Source: Pseudomonadota bacterium (GTDB lineage: Bacteria > Pseudomonadota > Gammaproteobacteria > Enterobacterales > JBCCZV01). Taken from it: a stretch of 62,279 nucleotides of DNA. The position numbers and the translations under genes are program-made. A model generated the notes under the pieces. It saw nothing but the letters and a program-made list of their open reading frames with translations, was not told the origin of the DNA and searched no databases. Below are positions 2,362 through 15,308 of this stretch, one piece after another (within the stretch, counting starts at the first letter, position 1; the number at the start of each line of letters is the position of its first letter). Location of the stretch: NCBI GenBank assembly GCA_039187085.1, contig JBCCZV010000005.1, forward strand, positions 1-62,279, read 5' to 3'.

Positions 2362-2985
2362 TTAAAACGAAGCTGAAATGCCAGCAAAAACTTCACCATC
2401 GGCATACTCTGAATCTTCTTCGTGATCACTGTAACCTACGAATACTGAATAACTATCGTTAAATGCATAAGATACAGATAATGAGTAATCATAAACATCG
2501 TCACCTTCATCTGGAGAAAATGTACCATAGTGCAAATCTAAAGAAACTTTATCAATCAATTCATAGCTATAACCTAACTCGTAATAATGTGATTCTAAAG
2601 TTTCATCGTAATAATAGGTAAAACCAAAATCCAGGTAACTCAAACCTATATGATATTCTGTTGTGTGTTCGCCAACACCTGGGTAGTAATACCTTAGTAC
2701 GCCTACATCCACGCTAAAGTCATCAGAAACTGAAAAAGCATAGCCCCCATAAAAATCGATTTCACCGTTACCTGAATCTGATGAACCCCAAACACCTAAG
2801 TAAGCACCAGAAGAGTGGGATAAATCAAAACCACCTTGGGTTGCGGGTTCATCGTTAGAGAGAGAGACACCACGAAAAATATAATTACTAACAAGGCTGA
2901 CATTAGCGCTGACTTCAAATTCTTCAGCATGCGAAAAATTGGAAAATAAAGGAAGTGTTAAGAAAAGTATTGCTTTTTTATTCAT
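2362..2985 (-). CDS. TorF-family putative outer-membrane porin (Gcw_chp-type beta-barrel)
   Basis: Signal peptide ...FSHA|EE. Hallmark motif VSLVSNYIFRGVSLSNDEPATQGGFDL...GAYLGVWGSS...EIDFYGGY. Alternating aromatic beta-strand pattern and a C-terminal Phe. Confidence 0.8.
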   Translation of the reverse strand: MNKKAILFLTLPLFSNFSHAEEFEVSANVSLVSNYIFRGVSLSNDEPATQGGFDLSHSSGAYLGVWGSSDSGNGEIDFYGGYAFSVSDDFSVDVGVLRYYYPGVGEHTTEYHIGLSYLDFGFTYYYDETLESHYYELGYSYELIDKVSLDLHYGTFSPDEGDDVYDYSLSVSYAFNDSYSVFVGYSDHEEDSEYADGEVFAGISASF

Positions 2986-3093
2986 GAATTCACCTGCTAC
3001 AAAATCGAATTAAAGTATCCTTATTAATAACCTTAGCAAGTCCGATACCAAATTCGATTTTGTTTCAGAAAAAAGCAAGAGCAAGAGGTCTTT

Positions 3094-4137
3094 TTATTGA
3101 TTAATCAATTTATCATTGAGTTGCGAATGAAGAATTTTATCAGCTTCTTGCATCAAGCGAGAGTTTAATAAACTTTGGTCTGTGGCACTGACTTTAAAGC
3201 GCCAGGTTTGACTATTCATAAGCGCTTTCGAATCAGTATCTTGCACATCAATTGTTAATGTGCCTCTGGCCCAATACCAGCCTCCTCGCGGATTTAAAGT
3301 ATCCATGCTTAATTGCCCCAATAATTGATAGCCACCACTAAATTCGACGCGGTAACCGTCTTTTTTTAGTGCGCTTTTTAACGAGTTAGCAAGTTCTGAC
3401 TCGTAAGCACCTTTGGTTGAAATAGAAAATATAATTTGGTCAGCCAGTTTCAATCGTAGGGTTTTAAGTTCTTCTAATGGCCATTTTGGTGCGACTCCGA
3501 TTCCACTTGCATCAATAACTTGCAATTGTTGTTGATATCCAAAACGTTTTGTCTGTAATTTTATCGCTTTATCTAAGCTTCGTAATGTGGTGAGTTTTGG
3601 TGCATTTGAATGACTGGGTTTTAAAAGGAGCGCGGATGCTTGGTCGAGTTCAGAAATTTTATCGCTAAGTTGTTGATAGAGTTGCATTCTATTCAAGCTT
3701 GCTAAAGCAAAATACTCTTGTGTGGTTGGATTTTGCCAACTTTCCATAATGGTAATGCCTGACAGAGTTTGTTCAGTGCTAGCAATTAATTCGCGCTGCA
3801 AACTATTAGACTCTTCTGAATACTGCTGGTTTGCTGAGAAATTTATCGTCGCTTTTTGTTTATCAACAAGTACTTCATTAATAGCTACTTGAAAAACTTT
3901 GGCCAAGTCACTACGTGCTCTATCCTTAGCTAAGTCTAAAGTTGTAGCACTACCCACGCCAGTAAAATAGTTAGAAACTGGATATGTTTGGTTAGGATTT
4001 AAAATCCAACCGGGTGTTTGCGATATATCCTTAGTCGGTTGCGATGAACAACCACTAATGACTAGGAAAATAAAACAAGCAGTGAGTCGTTGGGTTTTTT
4101 TAAAGCAAGATATGAAGTGGGTGAACACATTTAGCAT
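3094..4137 (-). CDS. LPP20-like lipoprotein (long form)
   Basis: Lipobox LVISG|C. GWILNP...YFTGVGSATTLDLAKDRARSDLAKVF resembles the LPP20 domain. Start taken at Met13 of the tracked ORF (ATG 4137). Confidence 0.65.
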   Translation of the reverse strand: MLNVFTHFISCFKKTQRLTACFIFLVISGCSSQPTKDISQTPGWILNPNQTYPVSNYFTGVGSATTLDLAKDRARSDLAKVFQVAINEVLVDKQKATINFSANQQYSEESNSLQRELIASTEQTLSGITIMESWQNPTTQEYFALASLNRMQLYQQLSDKISELDQASALLLKPSHSNAPKLTTLRSLDKAIKLQTKRFGYQQQLQVIDASGIGVAPKWPLEELKTLRLKLADQIIFSISTKGAYESELANSLKSALKKDGYRVEFSGGYQLLGQLSMDTLNPRGGWYWARGTLTIDVQDTDSKALMNSQTWRFKVSATDQSLLNSRLMQEADKILHSQLNDKLINQ

Positions 4138-4182
4138 GGCTAGCCTCGTTGACAAAAAGTAAAAAAATGACACTCGAATGTT

Positions 4183-5415
4183 TTATCCATGCCAATAAAT
4201 CGATTGCACACTCAAACGGTCATTGCCTGGAGGTTGTAACAACTCGTCAGATACGTGTATCGATTCTTGATGCCATGGCACTCTAACCAGATAGAATTCA
4301 GCAGGTAATAAGCTCCATTGCCTTGTATCGGCAGTTTGTAAAACGGATGCGGCTAAATTGAATACATGCGCGAGAATCTCGCTTTGCTCTTCGGTTTTAT
4401 TGACAACGACTTGTGAAGCAATAAGTCGTGAAATAGCTTTAGCACGCATGCTTGGAAGTTGATCATCTAGTTGCCTTTCGATGGCCATTGACAAATCAAA
4501 ACCCAATTGTATGGCATAGGCATCGTCGTTAACTTTTAAAACACTATCGATGGCAGGTACAGAGCGATCGAGCAATTTGGGTACGGAGATATGTAGAATA
4601 TAACCTTCATCTGGGTGTAAAGCGGTTATTGAATTGGGTACCAGGCGAGGTACAAAGCCAACATGATAGACTAAGAGGCTTTCTTGAGTTGCGCACAGTC
4701 TCGCAGAGTCCGCTCCTTGAAAACGTTCTTTAAACGTTTTGAATTCCTCGTCTATGGAGAGTGTTTTTGCTAAACAGACGAGTTGATGCGCTAAATCGTT
4801 AGGAATAGTGATTCCTTCGATTTCGAAAGCTTTCAGAGATTGTTTAAAAGCAATATAAGCGTTGTCGATTTCATCAAGACCTTGGAAAACCACACCAGAG
4901 AGATAGCGAGCAAAACCCTCAACACCAAAATATTGATGTGTACCCAAACGCTTTAAATAGGCATCTAATTGCATCGCTTCGACTCGGGCGCTTTCAAAAT
5001 CATGGATCTCTAAAAAATTAAGCATTTGATAAACAAAAATTAACAAGGTATCTATAGGTGTTGCTTGGTAAGCTTTCGTGTTTTCGCTTAAGGTTAAGCT
5101 GGATAAGGTTCCCGTGATACTGGTTGCTTCAGAACCTAGAATAATCGCTTTTGCTTGAGCAAAACTCTCAATACTAGACTGATAATTTTTATCGTAACGA
5201 TAAATAACACCAGCATTTAACCAATAAAGTAAGCGGTCAAATGATGATGTTTTCAAAGACTCTATGGAAGCCAACGCTTTTTTTGGAGCTTCCATTACTA
5301 AATAATTTTCAGCTTGAGCCAGTTTGGCTTGAGAAGCACATCCTTGTAATTGACTTATGATAAGAAGTAAGCCAAGAAAGCTGATCCATCGTTTTGATGA
5401 GAAATCAATTTCCAT
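4183..5415 (-). CDS. Lipoprotein with TPR-like helical N-terminal region (COG3014-like uncharacterised family)
   Basis: Start taken at Met26 (ATG 5415), giving signal+lipobox LQG|CAS. Helical repeats (YWLNAGVIYRYDKNYQSSIESFAQAK). It is embedded between LpoB-like and LPP20-like genes. Confidence 0.6.
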   Translation of the reverse strand: MEIDFSSKRWISFLGLLLIISQLQGCASQAKLAQAENYLVMEAPKKALASIESLKTSSFDRLLYWLNAGVIYRYDKNYQSSIESFAQAKAIILGSEATSITGTLSSLTLSENTKAYQATPIDTLLIFVYQMLNFLEIHDFESARVEAMQLDAYLKRLGTHQYFGVEGFARYLSGVVFQGLDEIDNAYIAFKQSLKAFEIEGITIPNDLAHQLVCLAKTLSIDEEFKTFKERFQGADSARLCATQESLLVYHVGFVPRLVPNSITALHPDEGYILHISVPKLLDRSVPAIDSVLKVNDDAYAIQLGFDLSMAIERQLDDQLPSMRAKAISRLIASQVVVNKTEEQSEILAHVFNLAASVLQTADTRQWSLLPAEFYLVRVPWHQESIHVSDELLQPPGNDRLSVQSIYWHG

Positions 5416-5467
5416 TATTAGTATTCTTTTAATTAAATAAAAATGATATGGCTCGAACCGATTTAAT

Positions 5468-6073
5468 TTAAAAACGGTATTTTCTGCCACTAATAATTTT
5501 TTTGATTTTCTCCTGACCTAACCAAACTTTACGATTATCTTTCATGCTGATTAGAGTCAGATCAACTTGATAAAAAGTGACTTGTTGTTTATCCAGTGCA
5601 TCAACAATCGTATTAATACTACCAATCAACATATAATCAGCACCAATTTCTTGCCCCATGGCACTACGAGTTGCTTCACTCGCATTAAGGTCTTGATCGG
5701 CACGTTCATCACGGATTTGACCCCTTTCTTGGCTTGAAGCGACAAAGCTTACACGTCCAGAATTGATAAGTTCACGTTCAATATCGTTGATAAACGTATT
5801 GACATTAATGTGCTCATGACTGAGGTTTCGGATATTCCCAACAATCACAGTAGGCGCTTTTCCTGTTGCTCCACGATGTTCGCCTAACCATGCGCGACTG
5901 AGCATGTCGGTGACCATGGTAGCGGACACCATGCGTGAGTCGGTATCATTCCAGTAACCACTTAAATCTTGTGTTGTTCCAGGATCAACACGCTCTACAC
6001 TGGTGGTTTGACATCCCATGATGCTCAAAGTGAGTAGCAAAAGGCTAAAACGGGCATGCATTTTACTCAACAT
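5468..6073 (-). CDS. LpoB-like (COG3417) outer-membrane lipoprotein
   Basis: Lipobox SIMG|CQT. The core ...TVIVGNIRNLSHEHINVNTFINDIERELINSGRVSFV...GADYMLIGSI...YQVDLTLISM is typical of the penicillin-binding-protein-activator LpoB family fold. Confidence 0.7.
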   Translation of the reverse strand: MLSKMHARFSLLLLTLSIMGCQTTSVERVDPGTTQDLSGYWNDTDSRMVSATMVTDMLSRAWLGEHRGATGKAPTVIVGNIRNLSHEHINVNTFINDIERELINSGRVSFVASSQERGQIRDERADQDLNASEATRSAMGQEIGADYMLIGSINTIVDALDKQQVTFYQVDLTLISMKDNRKVWLGQEKIKKIISGRKYRF

Positions 6074-6104
6074 AAATTATCCTGCTTTATTGATTATGAC
6101 TAAA

Positions 6105-6662
6105 TTATTGGTCACTGATAAGTTGATCAAATAGCGAGTCGCTTTTTGATTCAAAAAATTGCTGGAAAGAATTATCCATTTGTTTAGCGGTTGAAACAAT
6201 GTTTTGAACTTTTGACATGTTCAATTCAGCCAGTGAATAGACACTTCCACTTTTTTGATCTTTCCAACGTGCGATGATTACTGCCCCTGAAACATTGAGT
6301 TTGGTGATATTTTCAATTTTTCGGGCAATAGATTGTTGAGAAATTTCGTTCTCTTGACTACCTGCTGAGGCAATGTAATCTCGTGATACCACTTCCATAT
6401 AACTCGACAGAGTTTTAGCCACCTCTGCTCGTGCTCGTGTATCTGCAGTACTACGCTGTAAAGAGGCGTCGAGCATTCTAGGTGCAAATCCTACACCATG
6501 AAATAATCTACCATCGTCGTTATTGAGCGCCTGATAACCTTCATTGACCCAATCGGGGGCATCGGCAATACCAAGATCACTTTCCACGCGTGTTTGGGTT
6601 GAGCAAGCTGAAAGTAGTGATGCGAGTAGAATAAAAACGCCAAAAGAATTAAGTTTGTTCAT
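6105..6662 (-). CDS. LPP20-like lipoprotein (short form)
   Basis: Start at Met28 (ATG 6662). Lipobox LLSA|CST. APDWVNEG...FHGVGFAP...LQRSTADTRARAEVAKTLSSYMEV parallels the motif in 3094..4137. Confidence 0.7.
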   Translation of the reverse strand: MNKLNSFGVFILLASLLSACSTQTRVESDLGIADAPDWVNEGYQALNNDDGRLFHGVGFAPRMLDASLQRSTADTRARAEVAKTLSSYMEVVSRDYIASAGSQENEISQQSIARKIENITKLNVSGAVIIARWKDQKSGSVYSLAELNMSKVQNIVSTAKQMDNSFQQFFESKSDSLFDQLISDQ

Positions 6663-6909
6663 AGAGAAACACCTGATGACTGATAAACCTTGACAATAAT
6701 ATACACAATTTAAAACATTTAGGAAAAATTTAGAGCAGCACATATGAATGCTATTTTACATGCGCTGACTGAATGATAACTGAATAGGTAAGTATCTTGG
6801 AAATCCTTTACAATTTGTTGACAATTCAAGTATGTAGATTTATAGGGAATATGAGTGAGAACTCGTGATTCGCTTATTTCCTTATAAGCGGTAGACAGGT
6901 TATTTGGAT

Positions 6910-7572
6910 TTAAGCTGAACGGCTTAGAGTTTCATAGTCATTAAACAAGTGGGAAAAACGATCGATATAATGGACATTTGTTCCATCTTCGTAGGAAAAA
7001 CTACGGCTATGTGAATAGTAAACACCGTGACTAATCAATTGATCTCTAAATAAATGAATAAAAGCATTAATATTATTGGCGAGACGTTTTTTTTCGTATT
7101 CTTCGTGCCCATAAACAATAATCTGCCCATAATCTCCTAAATGATCAGGATCCAGATCTACGGCAATGTGATTGCCAAATTCATCCGACGCGAAGGGTAT
7201 CCAGTATGGATTGGAATACTGTGGTTTGACATAACCGGGAGGCGTTGAAAAAGTGTCTTCAGCAAACGCTTCATTAAACATTCCAAGACCGCGCCATTCA
7301 TCCCAAGTCTCAACTAATTTGTCAAAACTGAGTAAACGCATACCAAAGAAAATACCACCAAAACGTCGCGATTGTTGGCCTCTTTGTAGCTGGTAAAAAA
7401 GTTTGAGGTCCAGAGGAACACAACAACCTAATTGATTTTCTATTAGAGACCAATCGTGATCGTGCTCCCAAGCATCTGCCCAAATCTCGTGAATGAGATC
7501 TTCACAGTGGAGTTTTAGCCAATCAATGACTGAGTACCAAGATTCAGTGAGGGAATGATTCATCGTTTTCAC
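6910..7572 (-). CDS. SMI1/KNR4 (SUKH superfamily) protein
   Basis: WSLIENQLGCCVPLDLKLFYQLQRG...GMRLLSFDKLVETWDEW...WIPFASDEFGNHIAVDLDP matches the SMI1_KNR4 domain pattern. Confidence 0.7.
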   Translation of the reverse strand: MKTMNHSLTESWYSVIDWLKLHCEDLIHEIWADAWEHDHDWSLIENQLGCCVPLDLKLFYQLQRGQQSRRFGGIFFGMRLLSFDKLVETWDEWRGLGMFNEAFAEDTFSTPPGYVKPQYSNPYWIPFASDEFGNHIAVDLDPDHLGDYGQIIVYGHEEYEKKRLANNINAFIHLFRDQLISHGVYYSHSRSFSYEDGTNVHYIDRFSHLFNDYETLSRSA

Positions 7573-7730: not shown

Positions 7731-7759
7731 AAAAAAAGCCCACTGAACAAAGTGGGCTT
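7731..7759 (-). terminator. Rho-independent terminator of the 7789..9195 gene
   Basis: On the minus strand: aagcccact-ttgttc-agtgggctt followed by ttttttt. It lies about 30 nt after the stop. Confidence 0.85.
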
Positions 7760-7788: not shown

Positions 7789-9195
7789 TTAGCGTCGAGT
7801 ACGCATTCGGCAGAACATAGCGCCGAAGAGTACCAGTAACAATGTCGCGCCATTGCCTGCTGTGCTGGTTGAAGAAGAGCTAGTTGATTCACTATCAACA
7901 GACTCAGCAGGTGCATCATCGCTTGAAGCATTGTCAGGAGGCGTACTACCGGTATCGCCATCACCTGTGTTATCGTCATTGCCGTTATCAGCACTTTGAT
8001 TGATATAGGTCGTTAACTCTGATTTTGAAACTGTCTGGTCACCATTCGTATCGATACGTGTTAATGCAGAAGTATTAATGTTGACAAAGCTCTGGTTTAG
8101 AAAGTCAAAAGTTAGTAAGCCATCAGCATCTTCGTCTAAGTCATCAAAGTCTTCCATAAGCACTGTAGCAAATTCCATGGGTGACATTTGCAAGGCGTTG
8201 TACTGTGCGGTTAGCATAACGCTCTTTTCATCAGTTGCTCCCGTTGCATCGGTGATGATTAAAGCGACTTGATGACGACCTGGTTCTTCGAAAGTCGCTT
8301 CGATCTCGGTCATACCATCAAATTCAGGTCGCATGATTCCCGCGATTTTCCATTGATAGTTAGTGATTTCATCCGATTGCTCTGCGGTAAGTTTTACACT
8401 CAAAGGAACAACTCCGAGAAATAAATCGGGACTTAGTGCTGCAAGCAAGGCATCGGCATTGAGTGCTTTAACAGCTGTTGTGATTTCGTTAGTCAGTCCT
8501 GCAATGTCAGTGGCTGTTAATTTAACGGTGTAATCACCCGGTGTATTAAATGTGTGTTGCGCTGTGACGCCACTGACGGCTTCACTACCATCACCAAAAT
8601 CCCAGCTATAGGTGACACCTTCTGCATCATCTGTTGTAGCTGCAGCATCAAACATGATGGTAAAAGGGACTTTACCTTCTTCCGATGAAGCTGTGAACTG
8701 CGCGGCTGGTGGTTGATTTTGAACAGCTTCAACAATTTTGATGTCGGTACAAGAATAGTATGGGTTGTTCAAATTAAACTTAAGTTGTAGTGTACAAGCC
8801 TCACAAGGAGTATCCGGTACCGTGATTTTCTGTTCGTACTTGACGGGTTCGCCGTTTTGCGGATTACCAACATCAGGGATGTTGTCCATGATGATGTTAT
8901 CATCGAAACCTTCATCATTAGCGGGCGAAAAAGCAATGCGGAAGCTACCGTTATGTGGGCGAGTTTCCTCAAATTGAAAAACAACTTCTGACCCAGCGAC
9001 CAACTGAACCGAAGTTGCTCCTCTCGCATCACCGCCACAAGGTGCGCGCGTGCTACCGAGAGTATTTGGGTTTCTAGGAGAAAGTTCTGCACCTGGTGTG
9101 ACACGCGAATGTGCGAAGGCGTTCGCGCTAATAATAAAAGACGTCACAATCGTCGAAGCGATTATGGTCTTTTTATTAACCCCAAAAAATTTCAT
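7789..9195 (-). CDS. Secreted multidomain protein. It has an N-terminal-His (histidine-brace/LPMO-like) domain, 2 PKD-like domains, EF-hand-like loops, an acidic S/T/D linker and a C-terminal TM+RTRR tail.
   Basis: Signal peptide ...SANAFA|HSRV. Motifs ETRPHNGSFRIAFSP, PCEACTLQ, YYSCTDI. PKD signature YSWDFGDGS...HTFNTPGDYTVKLTATD. DEDADGLLTFDF and DTNGDQTVSKSEL loops. Tail GNGATLLLVLFGAMFCRMRTRR*. Confidence 0.75.
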   Translation of the reverse strand: MKFFGVNKKTIIASTIVTSFIISANAFAHSRVTPGAELSPRNPNTLGSTRAPCGGDARGATSVQLVAGSEVVFQFEETRPHNGSFRIAFSPANDEGFDDNIIMDNIPDVGNPQNGEPVKYEQKITVPDTPCEACTLQLKFNLNNPYYSCTDIKIVEAVQNQPPAAQFTASSEEGKVPFTIMFDAAATTDDAEGVTYSWDFGDGSEAVSGVTAQHTFNTPGDYTVKLTATDIAGLTNEITTAVKALNADALLAALSPDLFLGVVPLSVKLTAEQSDEITNYQWKIAGIMRPEFDGMTEIEATFEEPGRHQVALIITDATGATDEKSVMLTAQYNALQMSPMEFATVLMEDFDDLDEDADGLLTFDFLNQSFVNINTSALTRIDTNGDQTVSKSELTTYINQSADNGNDDNTGDGDTGSTPPDNASSDDAPAESVDSESTSSSSTSTAGNGATLLLVLFGAMFCRMRTRR

Positions 9196-9447
9196 GTGTA
9201 CCTACCTCTTTTTAAATATGATGATGTGTGTGTGGAACATCAAATGAAATGATAAATAAACATGTGGATTTATACATAGATGTCGTCTAGGTTTTGATTG
9301 CGAAGAAGGTGGCAGTTATTGAAGAAATTGCTGGAGAGCGTTTGGAATGAAAAATTACCGTTTAACTTATTGAAAATAAATAAAAAATAAAATGATGAAA
9401 TTATCACAAAAACACTGACAAATTTAATTTGTTTACAAAGTAAACAA

Positions 9448-9478
9448 GGGCCAAATCTTTTTTGTTCAGTTTTGGCCC
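9448..9478 (-). terminator. Putative terminator after yceI
   Basis: Minus strand: gggccaaa-(15 nt)-tttggccc followed by a T-rich sequence (cttgtttactttg). Confidence 0.45.
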
Positions 9479-9502
9479 AGGGAAATTAACTTGGCAGCAG
9501 AA

Positions 9503-10072
9503 TTAACGTTTAATACCTTCAACATGCAAGGTTAAGAAAACTTCTTCTGATTTGGGTCCCAAGCTTTTCTTAACATTGTAGTCTGCCATTTTGAAAGAAG
9601 TGGTGCCTTCAAAACCTTGGCGAAAACCACCCCAAGGATCTTTACCACCACCAATATGCTTCGCATCAATAACCAACTCTTTGGTCACACCATTAAAAGT
9701 AAAGTCACCGATTATTTTAAAGTCGTTCATGTCACCTTCAATTTTTTTGCTGACAAATTTGGCTTCAGGGAATTTTTTGGTGTTAAGGAAATCTGGGCTG
9801 CGAAGGTGCTTATCTCTTTCCGCATGGTTGCTGTTGACACTATTGGTATCGATAGTAATTTCAACCGTTGAATTTTTGAAGTTTTTATCGTCAACAATAA
9901 ATAGGCCATCAAATTTGTCGAAGCGCCCAAGCAACCAAGAATATCCTAAATGGTTGACTTTAAAATTAATTGAAGCGTGCATTCCAGGAATATCTACCAT
10001 GTATTTAGCCGCTTGAGCAGTTAATGTTAATGATGCAGCAATCAATGCTGAGAAAAAGAGTTTTTTTATCAT
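9503..10072 (-). CDS. yceI: YceI-family periplasmic polyisoprenoid-binding protein
   Basis: Start at Met13 (ATG 10072, SD ggaga). Signal peptide ...LTAQA|A. Motifs INFKVNHLGYSWLLGRF, HAERDKHLRSPDFLN, FPEAKFVS are typical of YceI. Confidence 0.85.
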   Translation of the reverse strand: MIKKLFFSALIAASLTLTAQAAKYMVDIPGMHASINFKVNHLGYSWLLGRFDKFDGLFIVDDKNFKNSTVEITIDTNSVNSNHAERDKHLRSPDFLNTKKFPEAKFVSKKIEGDMNDFKIIGDFTFNGVTKELVIDAKHIGGGKDPWGGFRQGFEGTTSFKMADYNVKKSLGPKSEEVFLTLHVEGIKR

Positions 10073-10108
10073 CGTCGTTCTCCAGTTTGGGTTAGGTAAA
10101 AGAAACAA

Positions 10109-10657
10109 TTAGTAATGACTTTTTAACATGCGTTTTAACGTAGGATCTTTCTCGATAAAGTGATGTTTGATAGCGGCGGCAATGTGTAAAACACTTAAAC
10201 CAACAATCAGGTAAGCACTGTATTCATGAATGATTCCAACAGAAATAAAGTCTGGGTAAGGACCTTGCACTAATGCGGGTACTGTAAACCAATCAAATAC
10301 ACTGATCCCTTGCCCCTTCTCTGTAGATATAAGGTAACCAGAAATTAATATCGTGAAAAGTAGAGCATAAAACAGCCATTGCACGGCTAAAGCAAGTTTT
10401 TGCTCAAGTGCATTTTTAGCGATAGGTCGGGGTGTTGGTTGACTTGTGCGAAGGAATAAACGTAGAAGACTCAGAAAGAGTAAAAGTATACCAACACTTT
10501 TATGGTAGAAAGGAGCGTTATGATACCAGGGATCGTAATAATCCAGCCCCACCATCCAAAAACCCACAGCAAATAAGCCGTAAACGGTCAGTGCACTCAA
10601 CCAGTGTATTACAATATTAGCGTGCCCATACCTTACGGAAGAATTGAATAAGCTCAT
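10109..10657 (-). CDS. cybB: Cytochrome b561 family membrane protein
   Basis: RYGHANIVIHWLSAL..., four TM helices, conserved His residues (HW, HKS, HEYSAY, H..AAIKHH). The stop directly abuts the yceI ORF, which is the classic cybB-yceI pair. Confidence 0.85.
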   Translation of the reverse strand: MSLFNSSVRYGHANIVIHWLSALTVYGLFAVGFWMVGLDYYDPWYHNAPFYHKSVGILLLFLSLLRLFLRTSQPTPRPIAKNALEQKLALAVQWLFYALLFTILISGYLISTEKGQGISVFDWFTVPALVQGPYPDFISVGIIHEYSAYLIVGLSVLHIAAAIKHHFIEKDPTLKRMLKSHY

Positions 10658-10833
10658 TTAGCGAGTCCAAATTATTATTGTTAAATCAAAAATAGCACGA
10701 GTATCAGTTGTATAGAAGTATATGGGGTAATCTGCAACAGAAATCAAATGAGTTTAGTAAGATAGAGTTAACAAATAAGCAGATTTAGTGAGGTGACCAA
10801 ACGTTTATACTAATAAAAGTGAGTACTAAAATT

Positions 10834-10865
10834 AAAAAAAGCATTGACAGTAATGCCAATGCTTT
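10834..10865 (-). terminator. Rho-independent terminator of the 10899..11891 gene
   Basis: Minus strand: aaagcattg-(10 nt)-caatgcttt followed by ttttaatttt. Confidence 0.7.
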
Positions 10866-10898
10866 TCGGTTTGTAATATAAAGTCAGTTAACTTGTAA

Positions 10899-11891
10899 CT
10901 ATTGTTTGCGTCGTAAGCCAATCAAAGTCATTAGCATCAGCAATAGGAAACCTAAATGACCAGATTCTTCTTCCGTACTTAATGGGTTATCACTAAGGTT
11001 TTCTTCAACTGCAGCATTATCATTAGCACTTTCTTCATCGGTCGCGGTGTTTTCATCTTCTGAATTATCAGTGCTGTCAGAGTTTTCATTATCGCTGTCA
11101 CCATTGCTTTCACCGCCACTGTTGGCTGGTGGATCGTCAGCAGGATCTTCTGGTGATGCGTCAACAGGCTCTTGTGCACCAGCGGCAATTAATTCTTCTT
11201 TAGTGAGAAAGCCGTCAGAGTCCGTATCTAAGCCCGCAAAATTTTCTTCAGCCAACTCAACTACCACCTGAATTTCTTGAAAGTCTAATTGCCCATTATT
11301 ATCCGTATCGATAGCTTCAAAATCGTCGTAGATTTGTTGCGTTACGCTAATGGGAGTATCCGCTGGCGGCGCTGGGTCAACAGGTGGAGGTGGCTCCGGT
11401 GCTGGTGCAGCAGCAAGCACTATATCCGCACAAGAGTAGTAATTGCTATTGTTATTCTGCATAAACTGAACCATTTGCAGAACGCAATTGTTGCAAGGTT
11501 CAGTAGGTAGAGTGATATTTGCGGTGTACTCGGCGGGCACTTGATTGTTGGGATCAACCTCTTTGTGCAGAAGGTTGGTTTCATCCGCAAGATCGGCAAC
11601 GCTAGACGGTAAACCTTGCTCGCCATCCGGTGAGAAGAAAATATAATACATGCCGGTGTGATTAATGGTTTCCGTCCATTGTACCGTTATAGTTTGACCG
11701 ACCTGAAACGTCATCGGATTGGGTGAACGATCAAGGTTGCCGCAAGCACCCGTTTTAATGTTATCAACATCTGCGCGTGCTGTTAATGTACCACCGAATT
11801 TCCACTTGGCATGCGCATCAACAGGTTGTGGTGTAGCAAGCAAGGCAACACTGCCTATGGTTGCAAAAGTGAACAAAGTTTTAAACTGCAT
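10899..11891 (-). CDS. Secreted protein. It has an N-terminal-His (histidine-brace/LPMO-like) domain, a Pro-rich linker, two EF-hand loops, an acidic linker and a C-terminal TM+RRK tail. It is a paralog of 7789..9195.
   Basis: Start at Met6 (ATG 11891). Signal peptide ...PQPVDA|HAKW. Motifs ETINHTGMYYIFFSP, PCNNCVLQ, YYSCADI. DTDNNGQLDFQEI and DTDSDGFLTKEEL loops. Tail SGHLGFLLLMLMTLIGLRRKQ*. Confidence 0.75.
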   Translation of the reverse strand: MQFKTLFTFATIGSVALLATPQPVDAHAKWKFGGTLTARADVDNIKTGACGNLDRSPNPMTFQVGQTITVQWTETINHTGMYYIFFSPDGEQGLPSSVADLADETNLLHKEVDPNNQVPAEYTANITLPTEPCNNCVLQMVQFMQNNNSNYYSCADIVLAAAPAPEPPPPVDPAPPADTPISVTQQIYDDFEAIDTDNNGQLDFQEIQVVVELAEENFAGLDTDSDGFLTKEELIAAGAQEPVDASPEDPADDPPANSGGESNGDSDNENSDSTDNSEDENTATDEESANDNAAVEENLSDNPLSTEEESGHLGFLLLMLMTLIGLRRKQ

Positions 11892-12026
11892 GACCCTAAC
11901 TACCATTGTTTGTGTGTGTGATTTCAGGAAAGTATCATAGGTCGTGCTTGTATACGTGTGAATTGAGCCTCTCTTTACCAGATGTAATCCTAGCCAATCA
12001 GGGTTATGTGAATCAATACCACAAAT

Positions 12027-14585: not shown

Positions 14586-15065
14586 TTAACGGTTTTGATC
14601 TTTAAGAATACGTTCTTTTGAGCGCTTCCATTCCTTATCTTTTTCTGTTGCACGCTTATCGTGAAGTTTTTTACCTTTCGCTACTCCGACGTCTAATTTA
14701 ATCAAATGCTTTTTCCAGTAAAGTGCCAAAGGTACGATCGTATAGCCATCACGGTTTGCCGCGCCAAAGAGTTTAGAGAGCTCACGATTATGCAATAATA
14801 GTTTGCGCTCGCGTGTAGGTGTTGTGTTGACATGAGTGGACGCGGTATTCAGAGGGCTGATGTGGCAATTTGTCAACCATGCTTCGCCGTCACGCATATG
14901 AATGTAACTTTCAGCCAAATTGACTTTAGCTTCTCTTAAACTTTTTACCTCCCAGCCTAGAAGCGATAAACCCGCTTCGTAATTTTCTTCGATGAAGTAA
15001 TCAAATTTGGCTTTTTTATTGAGTACGATGGTATTAGGGGAGGATTTTTTGGATTTTTTACTCAT
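14586..15065 (-). CDS. smpB: SsrA-binding protein SmpB
   Basis: Start at Met21 (ATG 15065). [26 protein letters not shown]...HISPL...H....R.RKLLLH..E is canonical SmpB. Confidence 0.95.
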
Positions 15066-15308
15066 TGAAAGTCTTACTTGCCTAAAATGATCGTTGACTA
15101 TAACGGATTCACATGTCACAAACAATCAGTAGTACTCGCATTAATGCTATAAATTGACCAGAATAAGCAATAAGCCATGGTATTGACTGGACAGAATGAT
15201 CAACTCTACTTTGCTGCCGTGATAAGCTTTGCTACTATGTAGCGAATTTTATTCCAATCTATTTAGATGAAGTCAGTTTTCCCTGTGAATGACCAGAGAG
15301 GTTAGTCA

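What the first reader, a model, noticed from the sequence alone, without database searches (positions are those of the whole stretch)
7789..11906. Two paralogous secreted 'His-1' (histidine-brace/LPMO-like) proteins bracket a cytochrome b561-YceI pair
Seen in sequence:
- Both 7789..9195 and 10899..11891 have signal peptides whose most plausible cleavage (AFA|HSRV and VDA|HAKW) leaves histidine as mature residue 1.
- The roughly 150-aa N-terminal domains align by eye. Shared elements are a CG, ET(x)2-H-(x)G-[FY]-(x)-I-(x)-FSP (second His), P(x)2PC(x)2C(x)LQ, and YYSC(x)DI (an aromatic near the end plus four conserved Cys).
- Between the two genes, on the same strand, lie cybB (di-haem cytochrome b561) and yceI.

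Established knowledge:
- An N-terminal His plus a second His forms the copper 'histidine brace' of LPMOs. Related Cu sites occur in CopC, PmoB, YcnI and X325.
- YceI-like and cytochrome-domain proteins (Cellvibrio japonicus Cbp2D/Cbp2E) have been implicated as redox partners in LPMO-dependent polysaccharide oxidation.

Inference: this four-gene neighbourhood could be a membrane-to-surface electron relay feeding two cell-anchored copper proteins. The substrate is unknown because no CBM is recognisable; one paralog carries PKD domains instead. I cannot tell by eye which His-brace family the domain belongs to, or whether it belongs to a described one.
Basis: partly seen in the sequence, partly recalled or inferred. 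Interest (0 to 1): 0.8.

Follow-up and report, generated by a model that had tools for sequence, protein, structure and literature searches.

The report
Two surface-tethered LPMO-like copper proteins
Two neighbouring genes encode secreted, membrane-tethered proteins with the copper-binding "histidine brace" of polysaccharide-oxidising enzymes; they belong to a named but unstudied bacterial family, and their position beside a cytochrome b561/YceI gene pair looks coincidental, not a conserved electron-supply system.

Summary
On the minus strand lie B (10899..11891, 330 aa), cybB (10109..10657), yceI (9503..10072) and A (7789..9195, 468 aa). A and B are paralogues: 31% identity over 139 aa, E 6e-15, starting exactly at the His that follows each signal peptide.

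The domain belongs to a described family. Both proteins pass NCBIfam NF043005, "SCE4755 family polysaccharide monooxygenase-like protein". Profile alignments place the internal His on the copper-ligand His of two solved LPMOs, and the first Tyr of YYSC on their axial Phe/Tyr. AlphaFold models of both domains find LPMOs as best structural matches. Across family representatives His1, the second His, three Cys and the Tyr are (nearly) invariant. So the histidine-brace reading is supported.

The electron-relay reading is not supported. None of 51 related loci (489 kb) carries a cytochrome b561 or YceI gene. The closest A orthologue sits in a different context. The four nearest cybB-yceI pairs lack the domain. 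Terminator-like hairpins and gaps of 241 and 307 bp suggest three transcription units. cybB-yceI is a widely conserved pair in its own right.

No carbohydrate-binding module (CBM) occurs in 150 family members, which favours a Bim1/X325-like surface copper role slightly over polysaccharide cleavage. Verdict: new members of a known, uncharacterised kind, of moderate to low interest.

The parts
10899..11891 (-). Gene B, 330 aa. Layout: signal peptide, SCE4755-family LPMO-like domain, EF-hand pair, acidic linker, GlyGly-CTERM tail.
   Evidence: ORF. Public gene call with this start. NF043005 118.6 bits against a cut-off of 75. Pfam LPMO_10 36.2 against 23, C-terminal half only. EF-hand_1 34.3 against 25.4.
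11814..11891 (-). B signal peptide (aa 1-26, MQFKTLFTFATIGSVALLATPQPVDA). Predicted cleavage leaves His27 as residue 1.
   Evidence: Sequence: n/h/c regions with V-D-A at -3..-1. His at profile position 1 in 85/85 relatives. SignalP not run.
11412..11813 (-). B LPMO-like domain (mature residues 1-134). Key residues: His1, Cys24, Glu48-Thr49, His52, Cys107, Cys110, Gln113, Gln116, Tyr125, Cys128.
   Evidence: AF2 model pLDDT 79.3. Best Foldseek matches are AA15 and AA10 LPMOs. His52 aligns with CelS2 His144 and TdAA15A His91; Tyr125 aligns with CelS2 Phe219 and TdAA15A Tyr184. Conservation counts.
11178..11336 (-). B pair of EF-hand Ca2+-binding loops (DTDNNGQLDFQE, DTDSDGFLTKEE).
   Evidence: Pfam EF-hand_1/5/6 above cut-off. 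Lanmodulin EF-hand alignment.
10902..10964 (-). B C-terminal GlyGly-CTERM-type sorting/anchor segment (SGHLGFLLLMLMTLIGLRRKQ).
   Evidence: TIGR03501 GlyGly_CTERM 16.9 bits against a cut-off of 15.5.
10836..10867 (-). Intrinsic-terminator-like hairpin (14-bp stem followed by a T-rich tail), 32 nt after the B stop codon.
10109..10657 (-). cybB: membrane cytochrome b561 (182 aa).
   Evidence: Pfam PF01292 E 3.7e-31. 47-49% identical to cytochrome b561 genes paired with yceI in L059-L062.
9503..10072 (-). yceI: polyisoprenoid/quinone-binding lipocalin-like protein (189 aa from the ATG at 10072; an upstream TTG at 10108 is possible).
   Evidence: Pfam PF04264 E 1.1e-39. NCBIfam PRK03757 260.6 against 232. 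Gene call of 189 aa.
7789..9195 (-). Gene A, 468 aa. Layout: signal peptide, divergent SCE4755-family LPMO-like domain, two PKD domains, EF-hand-like pair, acidic/Ser-rich linker, C-terminal hydrophobic helix with an RR tail.
   Evidence: ORF. NF043005 77.3 against 75. PKD_4 87 bits, 2 stretches. Orthologues P0154 and P0037 (50-51% identity) share the architecture.
8722..9111 (-). A LPMO-like domain (aa 29-158). Key residues: His29 (= His1), His81 (ETRPHNG), Cys131, Cys134, Tyr146, Cys149. It lacks the near-invariant Gln116 and Met118 of the family.
   Evidence: AF2 model pLDDT 90.1, pTM 0.85. Foldseek top hits are AA15, AA11 and AA10 LPMOs. Alignments.
8473..8718 (-). A first PKD domain (aa 160-241). 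A second PKD-like stretch follows, roughly 8206..8430.
   Evidence: Pfam PKD_4 and PKD. PDB ColH PKD alignments.
7792..7860 (-). A C-terminal tail (AGNGATLLLVLFGAMFCRMRTRR): Gly-containing motif, hydrophobic helix, basic end.
   Evidence: Sequence. Aligns with the B tail. No TIGR03501 hit at E<=1, so the type of sorting signal is not established.
7736..7759 (-). Terminator-like hairpin (9-bp stem plus TTTTTT) after the A stop codon.

Best explanation
A and B are two anciently diverged paralogues of the SCE4755 family (NCBIfam NF043005) of bacterial LPMO-like proteins.

Proposed working:
- Each protein is exported by a Sec signal peptide. Cleavage makes a conserved His the first mature residue (inferred).
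- That His, an invariant internal His (ET..H.G) and an axial Tyr (YYSC) form a mononuclear copper histidine-brace site. This is inferred from homology; metal binding was not tested.
- The site sits on a compact, roughly 130-residue beta-sandwich with LPMO topology and two predicted disulfides.
- The domain is held at the cell envelope by spacers (PKD domains in A, an EF-hand pair and an acidic linker in both) and a C-terminal hydrophobic sorting/anchor helix (GlyGly-CTERM in B).

Transcription: the genes appear to be transcribed separately from the intervening cybB-yceI pair. That pair is a self-contained, widely conserved cytochrome b561/lipocalin module of the LcoA-BcnA type. Its flanking by A and B is specific to this genome and most likely incidental.

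Most likely activity (inference, about 40%): a cell-tethered copper capture or handling centre, or a small-molecule redox centre, analogous to GPI-anchored fungal Bim1/X325. Slightly less likely (about 35%): a genuine oxidative glycan-cleaving LPMO.
For: Family membership:
- NF043005 scores 118.6 (B) and 77.3 (A) against a cut-off of 75.
- All 150 scanned relatives hit the same model.
- A relative is named this way by NCBI (P0180).

Copper site:
- His at profile position 1 in 85/85.
- Second His 153/153, Tyr 151/153, three Cys 153/153.
- The second His aligns with the Cu ligands CelS2 His144 and TdAA15A His91. The Tyr aligns with axial Phe219/Tyr184. These were counted from the alignments.

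Fold: AF2 pLDDT 79 (B) and 90 (A), with top Foldseek hits AA15, AA10, AA11 and AA9 LPMOs.

Anchoring: TIGR03501 above cut-off for B. Most relatives end in a hydrophobic helix plus an Arg-rich tail, including MYXO-CTERM types.

Independence from cybB-yceI:
- 0 of 51 family loci (489 kb) contain either gene, using jackhmmer and hmmsearch --max.
- The A orthologue P0154 lies in an unrelated context.
- The relative with B-like architecture, P0033/L009, has unrelated neighbours.
- cybB-yceI is conserved as a pair in L059-L062 with different flanks and no family gene.
- The pair is described as a conserved two-gene unit in PMC9113575.
- A terminator-like hairpin follows B, and the gaps are 241 and 307 bp.

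Leaning to a non-degradative role:
- No CBM in 150 relatives.
- Pfam BIM1-like_dom hits 130/150 against LPMO_10 117/150.
- His1-His2 spacing is about 51 residues, against 109 in CelS2 and 90 in TdAA15A.
- No recurrent CAZyme among the neighbours scanned (148 ORFs from 22 of the loci).
Against: - No metal binding, activity or expression data exist.
- Signal-peptide cleavage is inferred, not predicted by a dedicated tool.
- By sequence and fold, the nearest solved proteins are catalytically active LPMOs (AA15, AA10). X325 did not appear among the top 50 Foldseek hits or in the PDB profile search. An active chitin LPMO of only 142 residues exists (5aa7). A catalytic role is therefore not excluded.
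- BIM1-like scores for A and B are below Pfam's cut-off (21.8 and 23.1 against 27).
- No copper-homeostasis genes recur next to the family either.
- The conservation test sampled relatives at 30-52% identity from other lineages. No close relative of this organism with both gene sets was available, so a lineage-specific functional link cannot be excluded.
Confidence: 0.62

Rival explanations
1. Electron relay. CybB takes electrons from the quinone pool. YceI carries a quinone or polyisoprenoid across the periplasm. The two tethered copper proteins are reduced by this chain to drive oxidative chemistry at the envelope.
For: - Four genes on the same strand within 4.1 kb.
- YceI-like X158 domains and cytochrome domains occur in Cbp2D/Cbp2E, which are candidate LPMO partners, and a Cbp2D cytochrome domain reduces AA10 LPMOs in vitro (PMC8981238).
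- If the C-terminal helix stays in the inner membrane, all four products would share the periplasm (inference).
Against: - Linkage is absent in 51 of 51 related loci and in the nearest orthologue of A.
- The nearest cybB-yceI pairs lack the domain.
- A terminator-like hairpin and long gaps separate the units.
- cybB-yceI is a widespread unit with its own proposed role (PMC9113575).
- Cbp2D/E are secreted, CBM-bearing proteins with c-type haem, not a b561 plus a free YceI.
- If GlyGly-CTERM processing sends B to the outer surface (established knowledge for rhombosortase substrates, recalled and not tested here), no outer-membrane electron conduit is encoded nearby.
Confidence: 0.08
2. Genuine LPMOs. 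A and B are cell-surface-tethered copper monooxygenases/peroxygenases that cleave a glycan such as chitin, peptidoglycan-like beta-1,4 chains, or the cell's own or a neighbour's exopolysaccharide. They would represent a compact bacterial lineage nearest to AA15/AA10.
For: - The best PDB sequence and fold matches are active LPMOs: TdAA15A E 1.7e-7, CelS2 8.2e-5, and Foldseek.
- His brace, axial Tyr and conserved Gln residues are retained.
- The Cys pattern and the CxxCxLQ and YxxCADI motifs are shared with AA15.
- B passes the Pfam LPMO_10 gathering score.
- A 142-aa active AA10 exists (5aa7).
- The family is frequent in Bdellovibrionota and Myxococcota.
Against: - No CBM in 150 relatives and no recurrent glycoside hydrolase neighbours.
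- The region that forms most of the substrate-binding face in AA10 is about half as long.
- The Glu two residues before the axial aromatic in CelS2 is not conserved here.
- A lacks the near-invariant Gln116 and Met118.
Confidence: 0.3
3. Not a copper protein. The domain is a structural or adhesive beta-sandwich, or binds another metal such as Ni or Zn, as in several recently described bacterial His1 'anglerase' or sequestering proteins. On this view the LPMO resemblance is only fold-level.
For: - TM-scores to LPMOs are moderate (0.5-0.6).
- Other bacterial His1 families bind Ni or Cu without LPMO activity (PMC12537917).
- PKD and EF-hand modules are typical of adhesins.
Against: - Residue-level alignment of both Cu ligands' positions and of the axial aromatic to two LPMO crystal structures.
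- Invariance of exactly those residues.
- Family models are significant at sequence level, not only at fold level.
Confidence: 0.07

Closest known systems
NCBIfam NF043005, 'SCE4755 family polysaccharide monooxygenase-like protein' (hypothetical equivalog; named after Sorangium cellulosum sce4755)
   Same: Both proteins score above the model's cut-off over its whole length. They share the signal peptide followed by His1, the ET..H.G, CxxCxLQ and YYSCADI motifs, and a C-terminal sorting helix.
   Different: Many relatives end in a hydrophobic helix with an Arg-rich tail and a preceding Cys, and 3 of 150 match the MYXO-CTERM model. B carries GlyGly-CTERM and EF-hands, and A adds PKD domains. A sits just above the cut-off and lacks two near-invariant residues. 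No experimental work on the family was found (0 papers).
CAZy AA15 LPMOs (e.g. Thermobia domestica TdAA15A, PDB 5msz)
   Same: Best solved-structure match by sequence profile (E 1.7e-7) and by fold. His91 and Tyr184 align with the family's His and Tyr. The CG-Cys, CxxCxLQ and YxxCADI motifs are shared.
   Different: AA15 is eukaryotic/viral, about 195 residues, with a roughly 40-residue longer region between the two His residues. TdAA15A is an active chitin/cellulose oxidase. Activity here is unknown.
CAZy AA10 LPMOs (CBP21, ScLPMO10C/CelS2, JdLPMO10A)
   Same: Bacterial, Sec-secreted, with His1, a second His and an axial aromatic residue. B passes Pfam LPMO_10. Same beta-sandwich topology.
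   Different: Only the C-terminal half matches the Pfam model. The L2 region is about half as long. No CBM occurs anywhere in the family. The proteins are tethered to the producer cell instead of released. A does not reach the LPMO_10 model.
Fungal Bim1/Cbi1 and X325 LPMO-like copper proteins (Pfam PF20238)
   Same: Small LPMO-like domain with a histidine brace. Tethered to the producer's surface by a C-terminal lipid-type or processed anchor. No CBM. 130 of 150 family members hit the BIM1-like model.
   Different: Scores for A and B are below Pfam's cut-off. The anchors (GPI versus GlyGly-/MYXO-CTERM) are analogous, not homologous. The extra Asp ligand of X325 could not be checked. No Ctr-type copper importer or other copper genes lie nearby.
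LcoA-BcnA / YceJ-YceI type cytochrome b561-lipocalin pair (PMC9113575)
   Same: cybB and yceI are adjacent and co-oriented, as in four related loci. Both match the corresponding Pfam families.
   Different: This concerns only the two middle genes. It is a separate system that has no recurrent link to the LPMO-like family.
Cellvibrio japonicus Cbp2D/Cbp2E (candidate LPMO redox partners)
   Same: Both contain a YceI-like (X158) quinone-binding fold, and a haem protein is implicated in LPMO reduction.
   Different: Cbp2D/E are secreted multidomain proteins with CBM2 and c-type cytochrome domains. Here YceI is a free single-domain protein and the cytochrome is an integral-membrane b561.

Membership tests
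NCBIfam NF043005 (SCE4755 family LPMO-like) | Whole-protein score at or above the curated cut-off (75 bits) over the full model. | tested here: met
   B 118.6 bits (model positions 5-145 of 146). A 77.3 bits (3-145 of 146).
NCBIfam NF043005 (SCE4755 family LPMO-like) | Signal peptide directly followed by a conserved His; invariant internal His, Tyr and Cys pattern. | tested here: met
   Both A and B carry all of these.
Histidine-brace copper proteins (general) | His is the first residue of the mature protein (free amino terminus). | tested here: inconclusive
   The -3/-1 rule and 85/85 conservation support it. No SignalP run and no protein data.
Histidine-brace copper proteins (general) | His1 and the second His are juxtaposed and bind one Cu. 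| not testable with these tools
   Model coordinates are not exposed. Only the homology alignment of the second His and axial Tyr to Cu-site residues of 4oy7 and 5msz is available.
CAZy AA10 / Pfam PF03067 LPMO_10 | Score above the Pfam gathering threshold. | tested here: inconclusive
   B 36.2 against 23, but only model positions 83-183. A has no hit at E<=1. 117 of 150 relatives hit at E<=1e-3. The dbCAN/CAZy HMMs were not available.
CAZy AA10 / Pfam PF03067 LPMO_10 | Extended L2 region forming a flat polysaccharide-binding face. | tested here: not met
   About 51 residues separate His1 from the second His, against 109 in CelS2.
CAZy AA10 / AA15 (catalytic LPMO) | Oxidative cleavage of a polysaccharide. 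| not testable with these tools
   Needs an enzyme assay.
CAZy AA15 | Sequence and fold similarity with aligned His, Tyr and Cys residues. | tested here: met
   5msz E 1.7e-7 with profile A6. His91, Tyr184 and the CxxC motif align. Top Foldseek hit for both models. Formal CAZy membership was not tested.
Pfam PF20238 BIM1-like / X325 | Score above the gathering threshold (27 bits). | tested here: not met
   A 21.8 and B 23.1 bits, although 130 of 150 relatives hit at E<=1e-3, best 1.8e-12.
Pfam PF20238 BIM1-like / X325 | Carboxylate (Asp) as fourth equatorial Cu ligand. | not testable with these tools
   The feature is described in PMC10952591. No coordinates or residue alignment to X325 were available.
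GlyGly-CTERM / rhombosortase substrates (TIGR03501) | C-terminal motif scoring above the cut-off. | tested here: met
   B 16.9 against 15.5. For A there is no hit, so it is not met for A.
GlyGly-CTERM / rhombosortase substrates (TIGR03501) | A rhombosortase gene in the same genome. | not tested
   Only a 62-kb window is available. It was not scanned gene by gene for a rhomboid-family protease.
Cytochrome b561-YceI (LcoA-BcnA type) pair | Adjacent, co-oriented PF01292 and PF04264 genes, conserved as a pair in relatives. | tested here: met
Conserved LPMO-like + cybB + yceI system (as proposed) | Recurrent co-localisation across genomes. | tested here: not met
   0 of 51 family loci, and 0 of 4 nearest cybB-yceI loci.

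The most novel reading that the evidence does not exclude
The SCE4755 family is a cell-tethered bacterial sister lineage of animal AA15 LPMOs. Its copper site does something not yet described for bacteria, such as Bim1-like copper capture or oxidative attack on envelope glycans. In this particular lineage two paralogues have been recruited next to a quinone-linked cytochrome b561/YceI module that reduces them, which would be a native bacterial LPMO reductase chain.
Probability: 0.08. Interest if true: 0.75.

Novelty: new member of a known kind. Interest (0 to 1): 0.35.

Why it matters
How bacterial LPMOs receive electrons in vivo is an open question, so a conserved membrane cytochrome/YceI partner would have been valuable. 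The comparative evidence here argues against that for this locus.

What remains of interest:
- The family is large: 1363 clusters (at 50% identity) with E<=1e-10.
- It has a model in NCBI's annotation library but no paper on it was found.
- It has a fully conserved histidine brace and no CBM.
- It is anchored to the producer cell and, on current evidence, is closer to animal AA15 than to AA10.

Characterising one member would show whether bacteria have a Bim1/X325-like surface copper system or a new compact LPMO class.

Tried and rejected
- The search for related loci with the six-sequence alignment A2 failed because no stretch was conserved enough. It worked with A3, but only through the single pattern W[ETD]ETINH[PT], so the 50 loci are a biased sample.
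- The exact 335-aa product from the upstream ATG is not on record.
- The metagenome scan with B found only four distant, mostly short loci.
- Apparent recurrent Myxococcota neighbours, including one with a Cu2_monoox_C hit, turned out to be antisense or overlapping ORFs of the GC-rich family gene itself. I discarded them.
- A Pfam census of 148 neighbouring ORFs showed no recurrent family beyond housekeeping genes. The remaining 201 ORFs were not scanned with Pfam, only with the cybB and YceI HMMs.
- Literature searches found nothing on this family: 'SCE4755' gave 0 papers; I also searched LPMO plus predatory bacteria, and 'polysaccharide monooxygenase-like'.
- The myxosortase preprint does not mention the family.
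- The signal-strapping paper describes other His1 families only, in the parts I read.
- X325 structures did not appear in the PDB sequence or fold searches.
- The His-His distance could not be measured because model coordinates are not returned.

Full report
**Anatomy**

All four genes lie on the minus strand. In transcription order they are:
- B, 10899..11891, 330 aa from MQFKTL. This is the start used by a public gene call.
- cybB, 10109..10657, 182 aa.
- yceI, 9503..10072, 189 aa.
- A, 7789..9195, 468 aa.

cybB and yceI are confident members of Pfam Ni_hydr_CYTB (E 3.7e-31) and YceI (E 1.1e-39; NCBIfam PRK03757 260.6 against 232 bits).

Domain layouts:
- A: signal peptide, then a roughly 130-aa N-terminal domain, two PKD domains (PKD_4, 87 bits), an EF-hand-like pair, an acidic/Ser-rich linker, and a C-terminal hydrophobic helix ending in RMRTRR.
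- B: signal peptide, then the same N-terminal domain, two canonical EF-hand loops (EF-hand_1, 34.3 against 25.4), a long acidic linker, and a tail that passes the GlyGly-CTERM model (16.9 against 15.5).

**Check of the observation**

- A and B align from the His after the signal peptide through YYSCxDI: 31% identity over 139 aa, E 6e-15. They align again over the EF-hand/tail region, E 5e-5.
The only addition is that everything is on the minus strand.

**What the domain is**

Both proteins exceed the curated cut-off (75 bits) of NCBIfam NF043005, "SCE4755 family polysaccharide monooxygenase-like protein": B 118.6 and A 77.3. B also passes Pfam LPMO_10 (36.2 against 23), but only over the C-terminal half of that model. 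Both give sub-threshold hits to the BIM1-like copper acquisition factor domain.

An exhaustive HMMER search with a six-sequence profile found:
- 2269 clusters (at 50% identity) with E<=1e-3;
- 1363 with E<=1e-10.

Family-model hits among 150 of the best hits:
- NF043005: 150 of 150.
- BIM1-like_dom: 130.
- LPMO_10: 117.

Conservation across 153 sequences (the 152 proteins held, of which P0005 is B itself, plus A):
- Internal His: 153/153.
- Three Cys: 153/153. A fourth Cys is present in 139/139 ungapped sequences.
- First Tyr of YYSC: 151/153.
- Two Gln: 146 and 149 of 153.
- Every one of the 85 sequences whose match reaches profile position 1 has His there. It lies 10-51 residues from the start, after a hydrophobic segment ending in A, G or S (T in one).

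**Mapping to known copper sites**

Profile-to-PDB alignments give the following, counting residues in the printed alignments:
- The family's internal His falls on chain residue 110 of 4oy7. This is His144 of ScLPMO10C/CelS2, the second brace ligand.
- It also falls on His91 of TdAA15A (5msz).
- The first Tyr of YYSC falls on CelS2 Phe219 and on TdAA15A Tyr184, the axial position.

The best solved-structure match by sequence is the AA15 enzyme (E 1.7e-7), ahead of AA10 CelS2 (8.2e-5) and AA13 (0.004). The family shares the CG-Cys, CxxCxLQ and YxxCADI motifs with AA15.

AlphaFold models are usable for B (pLDDT 79.3, with one weak loop) and good for A (pLDDT 90.1, pTM 0.85). For both models the top Foldseek hits in the PDB are LPMOs of AA15, AA10, AA11, AA13 and AA9, with TM about 0.5-0.6.

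I could not read model coordinates. The His-His juxtaposition is therefore inferred from homology, not measured.

**Is the four-gene neighbourhood a system?**

Family loci:
- I fetched 50 genome loci encoding family members. They come from Gammaproteobacteria MAGs, Bdellovibrionota, Oligoflexales, Myxococcota and Bradymonadales.
- I added the locus of the closest A orthologue, P0154 (51% identity, same PKD/EF-hand/tail architecture).
- This gives 51 loci and 489 kb, of which 27 loci are at least 10 kb.

Searches of all six-frame ORFs of those loci:
- jackhmmer seeded with the window's CybB and YceI;
- hmmsearch --max with a 120-sequence YceI profile;
- hmmsearch --max with a CybB profile.

None found a cytochrome b561 or YceI gene in any of the 51 loci. 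The same HMMs recovered all positive controls.

Other context evidence:
- P0154 sits between a TraF_2/PorP_SprF-like gene and unrelated genes.
- P0033, a relative with B-like architecture, sits among amine oxidase, HAD, YfiH and RluD genes.
- The four closest cybB-yceI pairs (YceI 62-64% identical; L059-L062, two distinct contexts) keep the pair intact. They have different flanks and no family gene.
- Such pairs are described as a conserved two-gene unit, lcoA-bcnA, implicated in protection against membrane lipid peroxidation (PMC9113575).

Evidence inside the window:
- A 14-bp-stem hairpin with a T-rich tail lies 32 nt after the B stop codon (10867..10836).
- Another hairpin follows A (7759..7736).
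- The B-cybB gap is 241 bp and the yceI-A gap is 307 bp.
- cybB and yceI are 36 nt apart.

The simplest reading is three transcription units. The surrounding genes are a heptosyltransferase-like gene, a SUKH/SMI1 gene and an LpoB/LPP20 lipoprotein cluster. They add neither CAZymes nor copper genes.

The Cbp2D/E precedent is accurately cited. However, it involves secreted CBM2 proteins with c-type cytochrome domains (PMC8981238), not a membrane b561 plus a free YceI.

I therefore rate the relay model at about 8%.

**Most likely function**

Shown:
- family membership;
- conservation of the brace residues;
- LPMO-like predicted fold;
- modular tethering architecture;
- absence of a conserved partner.

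Inferred: Cu binding and surface or envelope location.

Four things lean slightly towards a Bim1/X325-like copper-handling or small-molecule redox role over polysaccharide cleavage:
- No CBM occurs in any of 150 relatives. The extra modules are PKD, FN3, Ig-like and EF-hand spacers.
- The proteins are tethered to the producer cell.
- The region between the two His residues is half as long as in AA10.
- No glycoside hydrolase neighbours recur.

X325 and Bim1 are GPI-anchored LPMO-like copper proteins implicated in copper transport, without convincing LPMO activity (PMC10952591).

Against this lean:
- The nearest solved relatives by sequence and fold are active LPMOs.
- X325 was not retrieved in any search.
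- BIM1-like scores for A and B are below Pfam's cut-off.
- A 142-residue active AA10 exists.

My estimates are about 40% for non-degradative copper or redox handling, about 30-35% for a true LPMO, and the remainder for other roles. A is a divergent subclade, together with P0037 and P0154. It lacks the near-invariant Gln116 and Met118, so the two paralogues may not do the same thing.

**Novelty**

The family is already modelled and named in NCBI's annotation pipeline, and a relative carries that name (P0180). A and B are therefore new members of a known kind. I found no paper on the family. A recent systematic search for bacterial His1 metalloproteins, in the parts I read, describes other families (PMC12537917). 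The proposed four-gene system is not supported as a recurrent entity.

**Verdict**

- Observation: confirmed.
- Interpretation: partly supported. The histidine-brace/LPMO-like reading holds; the electron relay does not.
- Interest: 0.35.

Noticed in passing
L006, L007, L010-L012, L014-L020, L023-L025, L029-L031, L034, L036, L042, L049, L050 (e.g. L030:5450-5944 +): In 23 Bdellovibrionota/Oligoflexales loci a Cys-rich, lipoprotein-like ORF of about 160 aa lies directly upstream of the SCE4755-family gene on the same strand. It has a signal sequence ending in a QNC-type motif and no Pfam or NCBIfam hit. It is the only recurrent neighbour found for the family.
   Followed up: partly
Family-wide; window 11412..11813 and 8722..9111: By sequence profile the bacterial family matches the animal AA15 LPMO TdAA15A better than any AA10. 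It shares the CG-Cys, CxxCxLQ and YxxCADI motifs. This hints at a bacterial relative of AA15, a class described so far from eukaryotes and viruses.
   Followed up: partly
L003-L052: Genomes recovered with the family pattern are mostly from predatory lineages (Bdellovibrionota, Myxococcota, Bradymonadales, Halobacteriovoraceae) plus Gammaproteobacteria MAGs. The sample is biased by the single peptide pattern used.
   Followed up: no
window 2362..6743 (-): Downstream of A lies a run of envelope lipoprotein genes: LpoB-like (5468..6073), LPP20-domain (3094..4173), Gcw_chp (2362..2985) and two ORFs without any family hit (6105..6743, 4183..5490). A SUKH/SMI1_KNR4 gene (6910..7572) lies between them and A.
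   Followed up: partly
window 14586..15125 (-) and whole window: smpB is present, but ARAGORN finds no tmRNA or tRNA gene anywhere in the 62-kb window.
   Followed up: partly
window 9591..10016 (+) and 9617..9871 (+); 8769..9104 (-): These ORFs of 84-141 aa lie antisense to yceI or out of frame within gene A. The antisense ones also appear opposite yceI in related loci, simply because yceI is conserved. They are most likely not genes.
   Followed up: partly
window-wide; The organism appears poorly sampled. The exact A and B proteins occur only on contigs from one sequencing run (SRR22824305). The best YceI homologues are only 58-65% identical (Thiomicrorhabdus, Thiomicrospira, Thiotrichales, Cellvibrio), suggesting a little-known gammaproteobacterial lineage.
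   Followed up: no
L048:3425-3800 (-): Next to a Myxococcales family member, a stretch matches Pfam Cu2_monoox_C, the copper type II ascorbate-dependent monooxygenase C-terminal domain (E 3.2e-5, 23.9 against 23 bits). It was seen once only, inside a long ORF that overlaps the family gene antisense.
   Followed up: no
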